From Coraliomargarita sp. (GTDB lineage: Bacteria; Verrucomicrobiota; Verrucomicrobiia; Opitutales; Coraliomargaritaceae), in assembly GCA_965216325.1 (NCBI GenBank), contig OZ244160.1, positions 76,813-140,812 on the forward strand: a DNA stretch of 64,000 bases, read 5' to 3'. Positions 29,923 through 35,900 of the stretch are shown here, piece by piece (the first letter of the stretch is position 1; the number at the start of each line of letters is the position of its first letter). The position numbers were made by a program.

Positions 29923-32900
29923 CGATAAGCCAGACATGCGTTTCGGCATGGAACTGCAGGACTGCGGCGAGATCTTTGCCAACTCCGAGTTCAAGGTCTT
30001 CAAGGGCACACTGGATTCCGGTGGCGCGATCAAGGCCTTCAACGCGAAGGGCCTTGCAGATCTGACCCAAGGTGAACTCCGCGGCCTCGAAGATGCCGCC
30101 AAGTCACTTGGCGCGAAGGGCCTCGCCTTCATCAAGGCTGTTGATGGCGAATGGAAGTCTCCGATCCTTAAGTTCTTCTCTGAAGAAGAGAAGGCTGCGA
30201 TCAAGGAACAACTCAATGTCGAAGACGGCGACATTGTATTCTTCGCAGCAACCGAGTGGGAGCGCGCATGCACCATTCTTGGCCGTGTGCGTCTCGACGC
30301 AGCTCAGCTGCTTGTGAAGCGTGAGAAGCTAGTCATCGATCCATCCGATTACAAGTTCCTCTGGGTCATCGAATTCCCGCTCATGCTCTTTGATGAGGAG
30401 CAAAACCGCTTTGTGGCATCGCACCACCCATTCACTGCTCCGGTTGATGAGGACATTCCACTGCTCGACAGCGATCCGAAGAAGGTTCGCGGTCAGCACT
30501 ACGACCTCGTGCTCAATGGTGTCGAGCTCGGTGGTGGTTCGATTCGTATCCACCAGCCGGACGTGCAGAAGAAGGTCTTCGAAGACGTGCTCAACATTGA
30601 GCCGGACGTGGTTGAAAGCCGCTTCGGTTACATGCTCAAGGCCTTCGAATACGGTGCACCTCCTCACGGTGGTATCGCCTTCGGTCTCGACCGTATGGTG
30701 ACGATTCTCGGTCAGCGCACCAGTATCCGTGACGTCATCGCCTTCCCGAAGAATCAGAAGGGACAGGAAATGATGACTGCGAGCCCGGGTATCGCGACCG
30801 ACAAGCAGCTCCGCGACCTCCACGTCAAGGCAGTGCTGCCGAAGAAGGACAAGGAAGCGGCGAAGGCTGCTGAGTAAGCCTCGCAAAACGAATTACTTTT
30901 CGACTGGAACCCGGAGCCTGCTCCGGGTTTCTTTGTATACATTACTTATTTTTAATTAAGAAGAACTAGCAGCTGTTGTTTTTACTACGAAAGTCGCGAA
31001 AGCTTCTCTAAACGTAATCTATGGTTTCGCGTTATTCGCGTCTTTCGTAGTTAATTTCAGTTTCAGTTAGATGCGCCAATTTCTACTTATCCTCAGTCTA
31101 GCCACTGCAGTCCCAGTGATCGCCGAGAGCGAAGTGGGCAATTTCACGCCAAGTGCACCTGTGTATGATTTTCGTCTGCCACGTTTTGGAGAGAGTGGTT
31201 ATACGGAATGGGTTTTGCGTGGAACTGAGGGGCATTATGACAGCCCGCAGCAGATTCGTGTGAAAGGCATGGCGCTGCGCATTTACTCAGGTGATGAGAA
31301 GATGGCGCAGGAGCTATCCATGGATAGTCCCGAAGCGACGATTCTAACTGAGAAAAACCGCGCAGTCTCGGATAGTGCGATTGAGATTATCGGCGCGAAT
31401 TTCAAGATTTCCGGATTGGGGTGGAATTGGGATGGCAACACCAAGGAGATCCGTGTGCTGGCGTATACCAAGGTCGAGTTTACGCAAAGTATCGCAGCGA
31501 GTTTAACGGAGGTGAGTCCGACAGCGCCTGAAGATGGTGGACATACTGAGATCTACAGTGAGAGCTTGGTGCTGCGCACCAGCGAGATGGGCTATGCGTT
31601 CGAATTTACGAATGATGTGCGTGTGGTCTCTGACGAGATGGATCTAAGCAGCCAGACTTTGATTGTCTTGGCTGATGGGCCTGAGGGGCGTGATGAAAAG
31701 ATGAAGGCTCCGGACGCTTCGACCACGAAGCTGGAAGCGGTGCGTCAGGTGATCGCACGTGGCGATGTAGTGATCAAGCAGGAGCAACATACCGTGCGTG
31801 CTGGCGAAGCTGACTTCTTCCCGCGTGAGCAGGCATCCACACTGACTGGGCTGCCGCAGGTTGAATTGCCGGGTGCATTTATTAGCGGTGCGACGATCCG
31901 CACTCGCGAGGGGCGCGTGTTGATTACCGGAGATGAGGTTGCTGGACGTGCGCAGATGATTCTGACGCAGACAGGAGGCCTGGGGATTCAAGGCGCGTCC
32001 TCATTGAGCGAGCAGACCATTGTGCTGGCTGACAAGATTTTGATGCGAGAACTGGAGGCTGAGAACAAATTCTTTTTCGAGGGCAATGTCGATGTGATGT
32101 CCGGTGCGCTCCAGCTGAAGTCGGATACGCTCACAGTTTTAGCGCGTAAGGCAGCTGAATCTGCAGGTTCGGAAGATGAATCGCTTAAGGTCGGCGAAGT
32201 GCATGATATGTTGGCTGAGGGGAGTGTGCGCATTGAGCAGGACGGCCAGATCGTGAATGCTGAAAAAGTGCGTTTCTTCCCGCTCGAAGAACGTGCACAT
32301 CTGACAGGTAGCCCGACTGTATCGAATGGCGAGTCGGTGATTTCTGGGCAAAGCATTGACCTGGTGCCGGGCAAGGCGATCGTGAATGGCTCAGCGAGCG
32401 AGCGAGTCGTGGTCATTCTACCAGTGATGCCTGACTTGGGTTACAAGCCGAGTTTCATTCCATCCACGACGGAGGACACTGAAGCCTCAGAGGCGGTCGA
32501 AGAGTCCGAAACAATCGTGAAGAGCCGTATCGTTGAGATGTTGGAAGATCCGGAGAACACTCGCTTCATTTTTAAACAAGATGTGGAGGTACTTGGCACG
32601 AATTTGAAGACCACCTGTGACCGCCTCGATGTAACTGCGCGTGAAGTTGCCAGCGGCCCGGAGACTGGACAGTTGGATGTCGAAACGATCGAAGCCATCG
32701 ACAACGTCATCATCCATCAGGGCGAGCGCGTCGCTACTACCGACAAGGCGATCATCCTTCCGAAGGAGGGTAAGCTGACACTTGAAGGCAATGCAGTTGT
32801 CAAAAATCCGCAGGGCACAGTTAAGGGGCATCGCGTGACGCTCTATCAAGGCGAACGCCGAGCTGTCGTCGAGGGCGATAAGTCCCAGGGCGATGGTCGT

Positions 32901-35900
32901 GCCAAGATCACACTCCCAATGCCGGAGTAGGCGTAAAATTCGTCAGGATTGGTTTGCGATACGACTCTGCGCTGCTTTTGATTGAAAAATATGAACGAAG
33001 CTTCAGCCCCTCCGAGAATTGAGACACGCGACTTGGTGCGCGATTTTGGCAAGCGCCGCGTGGTCAATGGTGTCAATATAAACGTAACCGCAGGGGAAAT
33101 CGTCGGCTTGCTGGGGCCCAATGGTGCCGGTAAGACCACTACATTCTACATGGTGGTTGGTCTGATTCCGGCGACGCAGGGTAAGGTCTTTCTCGATGAC
33201 GATGATCTGACGCCGTTGCCGATGTATCGTCGTGCGCGCCGTGGAATCGGTTATCTGCCACAGGAAGCATCGATTTTCCGCAAGATGACTGTGGAGCAGA
33301 ACATCCGTGCTGTCGCGGAGACGTTGCCGCTGAGCAAAGCTGAACGCAAGGCCTGCATTGAAGAGCATTTGGAAGAGCTGGGGCTGACGCACCTAGCAAA
33401 GCAAAAAGCCTACACGCTCAGTGGTGGCGAGCGCCGTCGCTTAGAGATTTCTCGTGCACTGGTGACACAGCCTAAGTTCCTGTTGATGGATGAGCCGTTT
33501 AGCGGGGTGGATCCGATCAGCGTGAGCGAAGTGCAGAAGATTATCGTGCAGCTCAAAGATCGGGGCATCGGCGTGTTGATCACTGATCACAATGTGCGTG
33601 AAACGCTGCAGATCGTGGATCGAGCCTATTTGCTCCACCAGGGCAAGGTTCTGGCTGAGGGAAGTAGCGACTTTCTGGTTAATGATCCGCAGAGCCGCGA
33701 GTTCTATCTCGGCGAAGATTTTAATATGTAGGGCACAAATCCCCCCGTCCATTTTCTACTGACCTTCCATCATGCCCAAACAAGTAAAAAGCAAAACCAC
33801 TTTTGTTGAAGCCGTCTCGGTTCGTGAGTTCTTCGAATCCTTTAAGGAGCCACTTTCGCTCGAGCTGGTCGCCGGTGAGGCAGGTTTGGATAAGACCATT
33901 CGCGAACGTAGTTTGAATCGTCCCGCCTTGGCGCTGACGGGCTATTTCCGTTATTTTGCGACCAAGCGCATCCAGCTATTTGGTGCTGGTGAAATGGCAT
34001 TTCTGCGTGATTTGGACGAAGAGGAGGAGCACCGTGTGATGACGGAGATTCTGAAACGAAATGTGCCCTGTCTGGTGATTTCGCGCCACTTGTTGCCGAC
34101 GAAGATCATGAAAAAGTTGGCGGATGAGTATGGCACGCCATTGATCCGTACCTCTCTCAAGTCGAAGACGCTGATAACCGAAGCAACTTTGCTGCTGGAG
34201 GATAAATTTGCGCCTCGCACACATATGCATGGCACCTTGTTGGATGTGCGTGGTGTGGGCACCCTGATTTGCGGTGAGAGTGGGGTTGGTAAGAGTGAGT
34301 GTGCGCTGGCACTGATTGAGCGTGGCCATAGTTTGGTTGCTGACGACCTGACCTATATCAAGCGTCTGAGTGACCGCGAATTGATGGGCACATCCTCGGA
34401 GTTGAGTCGCGGATATATGGAGTGTCGTGGCCTGGGCATCATCAATATCGCAGATCTGTTTGGTGTGCGCTCGGTGCGTCTGCAAAAACGTATCGACTTA
34501 GTGATTAACTTTATCGCATGGACCAAAGGCATGCATGAAGAGCGCACTGGCCTCGAGGGCAAAACGCTTGAGATCTTGGGCCTACCCGTTGAGATTATGG
34601 AGATCCCGGTTCGCCCCGGGCGCGATATGGCGCGCTTGGTGGAAGTGGCTTCCATGGTGCATGCACTCAAAAACATGGGGCATGATTCCGCTGCGGAATT
34701 TAACGAAAAGTTGATCGCCCATATGGGTGGGGGCAACTAGCAGTGGAGCAATACGACCAGTCATGGAAGCGCTCCTGTATGGAATAATTGTCGTCCTCTT
34801 GCTCGGGGCTGTTGGGCTATTTGTCGCGAATAACAAGCAGAAGACTAGAATCAAAGTCTTAGAAGCGGATCGTCGCTCGCAGATCGAACATGAGCTCAAT
34901 CTACAAGATCCTGCTTCAGTCGTTGAAGAACCGGTTAAAAAAGTACCTGTCCCAACAAATGCAGGTTTCTCTAAGCCGGCGTCGAATGCCTTGTTTGCCA
35001 CACTGTCTCACGAGTTGCGCACGCCCTTGAATGGGGTGCTCGGGATCTCGCAGGTGCTTAATGAAGAGCGGGATAGCGAGGACCTTAAGGTGTTGGAAGG
35101 TTGTGCGCGCCATATGTTGGCGGTGTTGCACACTCTGGTGAATTTGTCGAAGGTGCAAGCTGAGTGGGGCCAACTGCCTGAGTATCGAGAGTGGGTGAGC
35201 CTGCACGAGTTGACTGAGCAAATTAAGAAAAATCTGAGTTTTCGAGCGCGTAGCCGTGGACTCAAGATTCAGCTGGAGCATCAGGATCAGACCTTGCGCT
35301 TGCGCGGTGATAGCGACCATCTGAAAACGATTATAGAGACTGCGTTGCTGGGGTCGATCGAATGTGTGGACATGACTGACCTTCCGGATGAAGAGCAGAC
35401 TTTATTGGTGACATGGTGCACCACGAAAAAGGATGTTAAGTTAATTATTGATAACCCACTGGAGACGATGGCTCCTAATCGTGGTGAACGGATTTCGGAG
35501 GTCGCTGAGCTGACCACTGGAGACAGCCATTCACGAATTAAAATGGAGTTTCTTTATTGGGCGGTCTCGTCTGCATTGCTGGAGTATTACAAGGGGGCGA
35601 TGTTGGCGGTGGCAATTGAACCCAGTGGCGTGCGCACCACGCTGGCCTTTGAGATGGAGCGTATGCATGCCTCACCAACCAGTGGATTACCCGTTGGTGG
35701 CTTACGACTTCAAACTGGGGATAAGGCCCCGAAAGCCATGGTTGAGTTGCCTCAGACTTTCAAGATTCTGGTGGCAGAGGATGATCAAATCAATCGTGGT
35801 CTGATGGGCATGTTGCTCAAGCATATGGGGCAGGATGCACATTTCGTTACGAATGGTCAGGAGGTTCTCGATAGGCTTGAGACAGAAACGGATTTCGACC

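What a model noticed while it worked through the whole genome (the two positions that open the first line are those of the whole stretch)
31071..32930. LptC fused to three LptA-like jellyroll domains: a single-chain periplasmic LPS-transport bridge specific to Coraliomarg [...]
g00111 (619 aa), directly upstream of lptB (g00112) and hprK, combines an LptC-like domain (45-131) with three consecutive LptA/OstA-type domains (177-278, 330-429, 495-593). No separate lptA or lptC gene exists in the genome. In other Opitutales families the same locus has separate small lptC-like and lptA-like genes, whereas the fused 620-665-aa form is found in the other Coraliomargaritaceae genera sampled. The periplasmic part of the Lpt bridge, built from non-covalent LptC-LptA(n) oligomers in E. 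coli, is here one polypeptide of fixed length.
Evidence so far: pfam.tsv rows at gathering cut-off: LptC E 1e-5; LptD_N x3 E 6e-5, 2e-9, 1e-5; these families occur on no other gene. Gene order aspS - g00111 - lptB - hprK. Six-frame search: full-length matches (query 2-616, 45% identity, open frames 644-665 aa) in 3 of 3 other family genomes; in 2 other Opitutales families (G101, G111) the N-terminal (query 6-141) and LptA-like parts (308-429 or 475-603) match two separate adjacent open frames of 161-191 and 222-384 aa; 15 of 22 other Verrucomicrobiota genomes gave no match at E<=1e-5 with this query. LptD barrel is present as g02145 (PF04453 48 bits, six-frame search, call 102), LptE g02480, LptF/G g00120, g01291. 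AlphaFold2 with an alignment of the four [...]
(Added by a program. Inside this text positions count along the whole contig: contig position 76,813 is position 1 of the stretch shown here. "Call 12" and the like, gene names such as g00115 and contig names such as C1 are that model's own, and its searches are not shown. The text may have been shortened before it was handed on; [...] marks where a part breaks off. The agent that wrote the report below was given it as the finding of a first reader that could run no searches.)

Follow-up and report, generated by a model that had tools for sequence, protein, structure and literature searches.

The report
Single-chain LptC-LptA lipopolysaccharide bridge protein
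This marine verrucomicrobium encodes, as one 619-residue protein, the LptC-type and three LptA-type modules that E. coli makes as separate proteins to carry lipopolysaccharide across the periplasm; the design is real and little described, but it is not unique to this bacterial family.

Summary
The ORF at 31071-32930 (+) encodes 619 aa: a short N-terminal hydrophobic segment, one LptC-like beta-jellyroll and three mutually homologous LptA-like jellyrolls. It lies directly upstream of lptB and hprK. AlphaFold2 models are confident (pLDDT 84-86, pTM 0.74-0.81). Each module superposes on solved LptC, LptA or LptD-N structures (Z 13-16). No other lptC or lptA is detectable in the readable genome, while LptB, two LptF/G, LptD, LptE and LpxC are present.

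The single-chain LPS bridge reading is therefore well supported by inference, but binding and transport were not tested.

The claim of specificity to Coraliomargaritaceae is wrong. The 4-module form is family-wide (58 of 60 genomes, 20 of 20 genera). Other Opitutales families carry LptC plus four LptA-like repeats (706-879 aa), and some carry LptC plus one (358-389 aa). Two families elsewhere in Verrucomicrobiota carry LptC plus three or more.

Earlier unchecked notes of this scan report the same idea on other DNA (Planctomycetota, Acidobacteriota). My four full-text searches found no paper on natural fusions.

The N-terminus looks like a cleavable signal peptide rather than LptC's membrane anchor, by heuristic only.

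Verdict: new variant of a known kind, moderately interesting.

The parts
30906..30931 (+). Terminator-like hairpin (11 pairs, 7 G-C) after aspS. It suggests that the fused gene starts a new transcription unit.
   Evidence: This is a consensus scan only; 5 sites were found against 5.8 expected in the region.
31071..32930 (+). Whole gene: 619-aa LptC-like plus 3 x LptA-like single-chain protein.
31071..31127 (+). Residues 1-19: N-terminal hydrophobic segment (15 uncharged residues, Pro at 15, V-I-A then E-S). Probably a cleavable Sec signal peptide; alternatively a short signal anchor.
   Evidence: N-termini of 41 homologues, pairwise identity 0.17. AF2 models it as helix 2-19. Heuristic only; no signal-peptide predictor was available.
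31140..31511 (+). D1, residues 24-147: LptC-like beta-jellyroll. It is the most conserved module (pairwise identity 0.62).
   Evidence: Pfam and NCBIfam. VIA-align: V. cholerae LptC 6MJP_C Z 14.9, rmsd 2.1 A over 132 residues; E. coli LptC 3MY2 Z 13.9, rmsd 1.8 A over 120. Conservation.
31524..31976 (+). D2, residues 152-302: first LptA-like jellyroll, with a variable loop at 203-223.
   Evidence: hhalign D2 against D3 and D4: probability 99.7-99.8%. LptD N-terminal domains 5IV9_A Z 13.5 and 7OMM_A Z 13.2; E. coli LptA 7QS6 Z 9.6, rmsd 2.4 A over 107.
31986..32432 (+). D3, residues 306-454: second LptA-like jellyroll. It joins D2 through a conserved 15-residue junction of fixed length (residues 300-314).
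   Evidence: LptH 4UU4_A Z 13.6, rmsd 2.2 A over 127; E. coli LptA 2R19_A Z 13.2, rmsd 2.5 A over 127, in a search of 48,161 chains. Junction conservation 0.55.
32487..32918 (+). D4, residues 473-616: third LptA-like jellyroll. It is the likely orthologue of the stand-alone LptA of related families.
   Evidence: E. coli LptA 2R19_B Z 16.1, rmsd 2.0 A over 130, 18% identity. Profile against PDB sequences: 2R19 E 1.6e-4. Domain trees.
32982..33731 (+). lptB, the ATPase of the LPS exporter, 51 nt downstream.
   Evidence: TIGR04406 at 360.4 bits, cut-off 240.
33772..34740 (+). hprK, HPr kinase/phosphorylase, the next gene in the same direction.
   Evidence: TIGR00679 at 357.2 bits.
39832..40944 (+). 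One of the two LptF/LptG permease genes of the genome. It is the presumed docking partner at the inner-membrane end.
   Evidence: PF03739 at 240 bits. The second copy is elsewhere (L032, 221.5 bits).

Best explanation
The gene encodes the whole periplasmic part of the lipopolysaccharide (Lpt) bridge as one chain. After Sec export, probably with removal of a signal peptide, a ~65-kDa acidic protein of four beta-jellyrolls in series remains. The N-terminal LptC-like module (D1) docks by beta-strand augmentation onto the periplasmic jellyroll of LptF/LptG. The C-terminal module (D4, the orthologue of ordinary LptA) docks onto the N-terminal jellyroll of LptD. D2 and D3, extra LptA-type duplicates, fill the space between. 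LPS extracted by LptB2FG with ATP is pushed along the continuous hydrophobic groove to LptDE. The number of modules is fixed by the gene (4 here; 2 or 5 in other Opitutales families) rather than by LptA self-association. Shown here: the architecture, the fold of each module, homology among the repeats, conservation of all four modules, gene context, completeness of the Lpt and lipid A machinery, and absence of other detectable lptC or lptA. Inferred: export and cleavage, docking at both ends, an extended conformation, and LPS carriage by every module.
For: Family matches over Pfam cut-offs, and over the LptC equivalog cut-off. AF2 on the whole chain: pLDDT 84.0, pTM 0.74; on D2-D3: pLDDT 86.2, pTM 0.81. 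Structural matches: D1 to LptC (Z 13.9-14.9, rmsd 1.8-2.1 A), D4 to LptA (Z 16.1, rmsd 2.0 A), D3 to LptH and LptA (Z 13.2-13.6), D2 to LptD-N (Z 13.2-13.5) and to LptA (Z 9.6). Lpt chains fill ranks 1-6 of an unbiased search of 48,161 chains. Several alignments run across module junctions at low rmsd: LptC 3MY2 onto residues 46-189, LptD-N onto D2 plus the start of D3, and elongated MORN arrays over all of D2-D3 (rmsd 2.4-2.9 A). This fits a continuous head-to-tail stack. D2, D3 and D4 are homologous (hhalign E 1e-26 to 1e-28). All four modules are under similar constraint across the family (pairwise identity 0.62, 0.47, 0.46, 0.51), whereas linkers L1 and L3 score 0.21-0.28. The gene sits where 22 split loci of 22 related families have adjacent lptC and lptA, 12 of the 22 overlapping by 4 nt. 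lptB follows directly. The genome has LptD, LptE, two LptF/G and LpxC and no other LptC- or LptA-like frame. The fused frame is intact in 58 of 60 other family genomes and in 20 of 20 genera. An engineered E. coli LptC-LptA fusion forms a stable complex with LptB2FG and delivers LPS to LptD in vitro (PMC12065857, passage read).
Against: There is no direct evidence of binding, transport or expression. The complex prediction was never accepted by the queue, and no RNA run was listed. The LptA equivalog model scores 67.1, below its cut-off of 71.7. D1 matches only the C-terminal half of the LptC profiles (positions about 82-177), is about 40 residues shorter than E. coli LptC's periplasmic domain, and probably lacks LptC's transmembrane helix. 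Model coordinates could not be inspected, so the extended shape and groove continuity are indirect. 24 kb of the genome is withheld, so a further lpt gene cannot be fully excluded.
Confidence: 0.8

Rival explanations
1. The chain is a precursor. It is cut in the periplasm at its variable, acidic linkers (residues 138-158 and 453-480) into LptC-like and LptA-like pieces, which then assemble non-covalently as in E. coli.
For: Linkers L1 and L3 are poorly conserved, vary in length (17-29 and 20-47 residues) and have low pLDDT. Related families work with separate proteins.
Against: The D2-D3 junction is conserved and of fixed length, so at least that pair stays together. The single frame is kept in 20 of 20 genera. 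No protease site or precedent is known to me (recalled, not tested).
Confidence: 0.06
2. D1 is not the functional LptC. A divergent, membrane-anchored LptC lies elsewhere, and this protein is only an elongated LptA.
For: D1 probably lacks a membrane anchor and covers only part of the LptC profiles. 24 kb of the genome is unreadable.
Against: D1 exceeds both curated LptC cut-offs and superposes on LptC at rmsd 1.8-2.1 A. It is orthologous to the separate lptC genes upstream of lptA-lptB in sister families, which show the same short N-terminus and the same end point. No other frame matches PF06835 or the lineage LptC HMM. D1 is the most conserved module.
Confidence: 0.06
3. The extra modules serve another purpose or cargo, for example surface lipoproteins or another glycolipid as proposed for Borrelia Lpt, or they act as spacers or regulators that do not carry LPS.
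For: The Lpt pathway moves lipoproteins in some bacteria (preprint 10.1101/2022.12.21.521298 and PMC12065857, passages read). D2 and D3 form their own groups in the domain tree, apart from terminal LptA.
Against: LpxC, LptD and LptE are present, so LPS is made and inserted. D2 and D3 keep the LptA fold and are as conserved as D4. A module in series cannot be bypassed if the chain is the only bridge.
Confidence: 0.08

Closest known systems
E. coli LptC (PF06835, TIGR04409; PDB 3MY2) plus LptA (PF03968, TIGR03002; PDB 2R19) of the LptB2FGC-LptA-LptDE bridge
   Same: Same folds (Z 13.9-16.1, rmsd 1.8-2.0 A), same order from N to C, same locus upstream of lptB, and the same partner set (LptB, F/G, D, E) in the genome.
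   Different: One polypeptide with three LptA-type modules instead of separate proteins with a variable LptA number. The LptC-like module is shorter and probably has a cleavable signal peptide instead of the transmembrane helix. Sequence identity is only 8-19%.
Engineered E. coli LptC-LptA fusion used for in vitro reconstitution (PMC12065857, passage read)
   Same: LptC and LptA joined covalently. The construct was reported to bind LptB2FG stably and to pass LPS to LptD.
   Different: It is artificial, carries one LptA module and keeps the LptC anchor. The protein here is natural, conserved across a family and has three LptA modules.
Longer fused LptC-LptA chains of other Opitutales families (706-879 aa, LptC plus four repeats; for example an uncultured gut Opitutales MAG and Candidatus Merdousia) and of other Verrucomicrobiota (727-848 aa)
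   Same: Same architecture and locus (lptB follows in L013) and a signal-peptide-like N-terminus.
   Different: One more repeat, the third being short at about 100 residues. Identity to the window protein is 25-31%. Whether the fusion has a common origin is undecided (AU p 0.254).
Fused multi-module LptC-LptA proteins noted earlier in this scan in Planctomycetota (1,025-1,093 aa) and Acidobacteriota (836 aa) (AI notes, unchecked by me)
   Same: The same single-chain bridge idea at the lptC/lptA slot.
   Different: Those are described as membrane-anchored with 5-6 modules. This one has 4 modules and a likely cleavable signal peptide.
AsmA-like single-chain lipid bridges (YhdP, TamB), named from my own knowledge; the YhdP preprint 10.1101/2023.10.05.561070 was seen only as a search listing
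   Same: One polypeptide forms a hydrophobic beta-groove across the periplasm.
   Different: A different fold and cargo (phospholipids), with no ABC transporter driving the flow.

Membership tests
LptC (PF06835 / TIGR04409) | Profile match above the curated cut-off | tested here: met
   PF06835 at 36.5 bits against 21; TIGR04409 at 41.8 bits against 38. The match covers only profile positions about 82-177.
LptC (PF06835 / TIGR04409) | Beta-jellyroll fold superposable on solved LptC | tested here: met
   6MJP_C Z 14.9, rmsd 2.1 A over 132 residues; 3MY2 Z 13.9, rmsd 1.8 A over 120; 4B54 Z 14.0, rmsd 1.7 A over 119.
LptC (PF06835 / TIGR04409) | N-terminal transmembrane helix anchoring it in the inner membrane | tested here: inconclusive
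   The hydrophobic run is only 15 residues, with a Pro and a V-I-A/E-S site. Homologues have 8-22-residue runs that mostly end in A or G before Q or E, and the segment is not conserved. AF2 draws helix 2-19, which aligns loosely with the LptC helix of 6MIT_C (rmsd 7.9 A). No signal-peptide or TM predictor was available.
LptC (PF06835 / TIGR04409) | Encoded directly upstream of lptA-lptB | tested here: met
   D1 precedes the LptA-like modules and lptB. It is orthologous to separate lptC genes at the same place in 22 split loci.
LptC (PF06835 / TIGR04409) | Binds LptF and LptA and receives LPS | not testable with these tools
   The complex prediction was never accepted. Cross-linking or pull-downs are needed.
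LptA (PF03968 / TIGR03002) | Pfam profile match above the cut-off | tested here: met
   PF03968 at 82.5 bits against 20.4, in three stretches.
LptA (PF03968 / TIGR03002) | NCBIfam equivalog score for LptA | tested here: not met
   TIGR03002 at 67.1 bits against a cut-off of 71.7, with 3 stretches. NCBI names the homologues 'LptA/OstA family protein'.
LptA (PF03968 / TIGR03002) | LptA-type jellyroll fold | tested here: met
   D4 to 2R19_B: Z 16.1, rmsd 2.0 A over 130. D3 to 4UU4_A Z 13.6 and 2R19_A Z 13.2. D2 to 7QS6 Z 9.6 and to LptD-N 5IV9_A Z 13.5.
LptA (PF03968 / TIGR03002) | Stand-alone soluble periplasmic protein of about 160-200 aa | tested here: not met
   The three LptA-like modules are covalently joined to each other and to an LptC-like module in a 619-aa chain.
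Lpt trans-envelope machine | The other components and lipid A synthesis are present in the genome | tested here: met
   LptB at 360 bits. Two LptF/G at 240 and 221.5 bits. LptD: 723 aa, PF04453 at 48 bits plus LptD_N at 21 bits. LptE at 40.2 bits. LpxC at 322.9 bits.

The most novel reading that the evidence does not exclude
The number of covalently linked jellyrolls acts as a genetically encoded ruler for the distance between the membranes. Opitutales lineages with 2, 4 or 5 modules in the chain (plus the LptF/G and LptD modules) would then have matching narrow or wide periplasms. In this order the chain would also be a fully soluble, signal-peptide-cleaved bridge that works without LptC's regulatory transmembrane helix. 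On published per-module lengths (about 4 nm from PMC5575297; about 6 nm from the Borrelia model), the six modules here would span roughly 24-37 nm, against 21 nm quoted for E. coli.
Probability: 0.3. Interest if true: 0.75.

Novelty: new variant of a known kind. Interest (0 to 1): 0.55.

Why it matters
How many LptA molecules form the LPS bridge, and whether the bridge is stable or transient, is still debated for E. coli (PMC5575297 discussion). Natural chains with a fixed module number give that question defined test cases. Within one bacterial order there are split, 2-, 4- and 5-module versions of the same locus, and some occur in cultured marine Coraliomargarita species. Module number could be compared with periplasm width by cryo-tomography. 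Single-chain bridges could also be easier material for structural work on a complete LPS conduit. The finding also corrects annotation: these genes are named only 'LptA/OstA family protein', so such genomes appear to lack lptC.

Tried and rejected
No result exists.

The whole-chain Foldseek search was uninformative: it gave global alignments to long all-beta proteins with TM-scores of 0.22 or less. It was replaced by VIA-align on the whole model and on a D2-D3 model.

The search for related loci with alignments A3 and A4 failed because no conserved 7-10-column stretch was found. A single protein then gave two named loci.

The search for homologous proteins with the five-module alignment returned only 4 proteins and no names. 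The listing of cluster members gave no names for the 700-880-aa forms.

The search of earlier findings by place and by sequence returned nothing.

The origin of the fusions stays undecided. The domain and concatenated trees leave the backbone unresolved. Holding the 3-repeat and 4-repeat forms together is not rejected (AU p 0.254). Holding all terminal and stand-alone LptA domains together is also not rejected (AU p 0.301). In the quick tree 28 of 30 of them grouped (SH-aLRT 94).

PF13100 (OstA_2) gave only a 14.7-bit sub-threshold match in an unrelated 1007-aa frame.

I considered an assembly or frameshift artefact and rejected it, because the frame is intact across 20 genera.

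
Full report
OBSERVATION. The ORF listing shows an ATG-started frame of 619 aa at exactly 31071..32930 on the + strand. 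It is preceded by aspS (29024..30877) and followed by a 249-aa and a 322-aa gene.

Pfam gives LptC (PF06835) at 36.5 bits over residues 45-131, and LptD_N (PF03968, the LptA/LptD-N family) at 82.5 bits in three stretches.

NCBIfam puts the LptC equivalog over its cut-off (41.8 against 38). The LptA equivalog falls just under its cut-off (67.1 against 71.7). The downstream genes are lptB (TIGR04406, 360 bits) and hprK (TIGR00679, 357 bits).

A strong terminator-like hairpin follows aspS (30906-30931). None lies between the fused gene, lptB and hprK, although the pattern scan is weak evidence.

ANATOMY. An AlphaFold2 model built on 41 homologues has mean pLDDT 84.0 and pTM 0.74. It shows a helix at 2-19 and then four all-beta modules. 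These are separated by low-confidence stretches at 138-158, 300-314 and 455-480, with two internal loops at 203-223 and 360-376.

Whole-chain Foldseek was uninformative. VIA-align on its candidate list gave clear module matches:
- Residues 454-619 match E. coli LptA 2R19_B (Z 16.1, rmsd 2.0 A over 130 residues, 18% identity) and LptH 4UU4 (Z 15.4).
- Residues 25-189 match LptC: 6MJP_C (Z 14.9, rmsd 2.1 A over 132), 3MY2 (Z 13.9, rmsd 1.8 A over 120) and 4B54 (Z 14.0).

I searched that model against 48,161 representative chains without Foldseek. Ranks 1-6 are all Lpt proteins:
- D3 matches LptH (Z 13.6, rmsd 2.2 A over 127) and LptA 2R19_A (Z 13.2).
- D2 matches the LptD N-terminal domains 5IV9_A (Z 13.5) and 7OMM_A (Z 13.2), and LptA 7QS6 (Z 9.6, rmsd 2.4 A over 107).

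Several alignments run across module junctions. LptC aligns onto residues 46-189. LptD-N aligns onto D2 plus the first strands of D3. Elongated MORN arrays align over the whole of D2-D3 at rmsd 2.4-2.9 A. This is indirect support for a continuous head-to-tail stack. I could not inspect coordinates.

Profile-profile comparison shows that D2, D3 and D4 are homologous to one another (probability 99.7-99.8%, E 1e-26 to 1e-28, about 140 columns). D1 is not detectably similar to them at the sequence level.

Across 37 family sequences all four modules are conserved to a similar degree: pairwise identity is 0.62, 0.47, 0.46 and 0.51 for D1-D4. Linkers L1 and L3 are variable in sequence and length. The D2-D3 junction is conserved (0.55) and always 15 residues long. 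D2 and D3 are therefore not decaying copies.

N-TERMINUS. The hydrophobic run is only 15 residues long, contains a proline, and ends in V-I-A followed by E-S. Homologues have non-conserved runs of 8-22 residues, mostly ending in a small residue before Q or E, just ahead of the conserved mature motif (identity 0.17).

This looks like a cleavable Sec signal peptide rather than the roughly 20-residue anchor helix of E. coli LptC. It is a rule-of-thumb reading, because no predictor was available. The separate LptC of a sister family has the same layout, so the feature belongs to the order and not to the fusion. The mature protein would be 601 aa, 65.2 kDa, with pI 4.7.

THE REST OF THE MACHINE. 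The genome is one contig of 3.06 Mb, 99.98% complete, with 24 kb withheld. It holds:
- two LptF/G genes, one of them at window 39832-40944;
- a 723-aa LptD with barrel and N-terminal jellyroll;
- LptE;
- LpxC.

PF06835 matches nothing else. PF03968 matches only this gene and LptD. Lineage-specific HMMs of the LptC-like and LptA-like modules, run with all filters off over 21,147 six-frame frames, hit only this gene. The next best match is the LptD frame at E 0.015. So no separate lptC or lptA is detectable in the readable genome.

DISTRIBUTION.

Within the family the fused frame is general. 58 of 60 other genomes matched, in 20 of 20 genera, mostly full length in open frames of 612-696 aa. The two without a match are 99% and 89% complete.

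In the order sample there were 80 other genomes from 41 families, and 75 of the 80 had a match. Most families show two separate adjacent frames. At ORF level, 22 loci from 22 families are split into lptC (142-226 aa) and lptA (175-384 aa as called from the first start codon). 12 of the 22 have a 4-nt overlap, and several of the other gaps reflect my over-long start calls.

Several other families carry fused chains:
- Families f2, f3 and f36 (8 genomes examined) have an LptC-like module plus four LptA-like repeats, the third one short. The cleanly called ORFs are 706-879 aa. Two further ORFs (951 and 1022 aa) have uncertain, probably over-extended starts.
- Family f31 has a weaker version of 837 aa.
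- f20 (389 aa) and one of two examined f24 genomes (358 aa) have a simple LptC-LptA fusion.

Outside the order, a 727-aa protein (f53) and an 848-aa protein (f49) carry LptC (49.1 and 39.6 bits) plus three LptD_N stretches (130.4 and 112 bits).

The search of 1.84 billion representatives found many 700-877-aa relatives at 25-30% identity. Of the 24 I scanned, all 24 carried LptD_N and 9 also carried LptC over the cut-off. One cluster is from an uncultured gut Opitutales MAG and Candidatus Merdousia.

Earlier notes of this scan describe the same single-chain idea in Planctomycetota and Acidobacteriota. Those are unchecked AI notes, and I did not test them.

EVOLUTION. In a quick tree of 76 LptA-like domains, the last repeat of both fused types grouped with stand-alone LptA. 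This covered 28 rows with SH-aLRT 94; the two most divergent family members fell outside. In a careful tree, holding all 30 together is not rejected (AU p 0.301). The terminal module is thus the likely LptA orthologue, and the inner repeats are additions.

In a concatenated tree of the LptC-like and terminal modules, the 3-repeat form is one clade (99/97) and the 4-repeat form of f2, f3 and f36 is another (99/99). They are not sisters, but the backbone is unresolved. Forcing them together is not rejected (AU p 0.254). Whether the fusion arose once or several times stays open.

MECHANISM. The best reading is a one-piece periplasmic Lpt bridge. D1 docks on LptF/G and D4 docks on LptD. D2 and D3 extend the groove, and LptB2FG pushes LPS along it.

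An engineered E. coli LptC-LptA fusion is reported to bind LptB2FG and deliver LPS to LptD in vitro (PMC12065857, passage read), so covalent linkage is compatible with function.

Published lengths give a rough scale. Four jellyrolls span about 16 nm against a 21-nm E. coli periplasm (PMC5575297, discussion passages read). Three modules span about 18.5 nm in a Borrelia model (preprint 10.1101/2022.12.21.521298, passages read). On those figures, six modules here would span roughly 24-37 nm. This is inference.

Rivals are processing into pieces, a hidden LptC, and another role or cargo for D2 and D3. Each is given below 0.1.

LITERATURE. Four full-text searches found no paper describing natural LptC-LptA fusions or multi-module LptA. 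Speth et al. 2012 (PMC3422733) holds no mention of LptA or LptC in its main text, and the passages I read use LptD as the LPS-insertion marker in Verrucomicrobia. PMC8871954 treats lptA and lptC as separate genes (passages read). Subscription journals are not covered by these searches. Databases name the homologues 'LptA/OstA family protein' or 'LptA'.

VERDICT. This is a real, conserved, well-modelled single-chain LptC-LptA3 protein. It is a new variant of a known system and is not family-specific. The same idea has been seen before in this scan on other DNA. The new element here is the series of 2-, 4- and 5-module versions beside split loci within one order, together with the probable lack of a membrane anchor.

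Noticed in passing
window 33772-36151: hprK follows lptB directly and overlaps by 14 nt a 474-aa protein with HisKA and a receiver domain. No HATPase_c domain was found in that protein at E <= 1e-4. A PTS-type regulator next to lptB recalls the lptB-rpoN-ptsN-hprK neighbourhoods of Proteobacteria (recalled, not tested).
   Followed up: partly
window 39832-40944 and L032:1486-2631: The two LptF/G permease genes are unlinked. One lies 7 kb downstream of lptB, next to an SNF-family symporter and a methyltransferase. The other lies next to anthranilate synthase component I.
   Followed up: partly
G000:C1:2607347-2608153: The LpxC match (322.9 bits) lies in a 447-aa open frame. That is longer than a plain LpxC, so it may be fused to another domain.
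   Followed up: no
L050 (G083) against L051 (G115): Within one Opitutales family (f24), one genome has a 358-aa fused LptC-LptA. Another has separate 171-aa and 182-aa genes 12 nt apart. This is a recent fusion or split event.
   Followed up: partly
L013, L019-L026 (four-repeat forms): In all eight f2, f3 and f36 chains, the third LptA-like repeat covers only HMM positions about 5-105 of 153. It looks like a truncated jellyroll, followed by a 40-70-residue linker.
   Followed up: partly
Proteins P0049, P0076, P0077: Several database homologues, including ones named for Coraliomargarita and Thalassobacterium species, start at the conserved MTPNAP motif with no signal peptide. Their start codons are probably called too far downstream.
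   Followed up: no
L028 (G079, 0.9-Mb genome): Several very small Opitutales genomes (0.8-1.0 Mb) keep LptC- and LptA-like genes. One has a 389-aa fused form, and others gave weak or no matches.
   Followed up: no
window 28083-28919: A 278-aa protein with a signal peptide, a thioredoxin-like domain (PF13098, 43 bits) and a C-terminal hydrophobic tail lies upstream of aspS.
   Followed up: no
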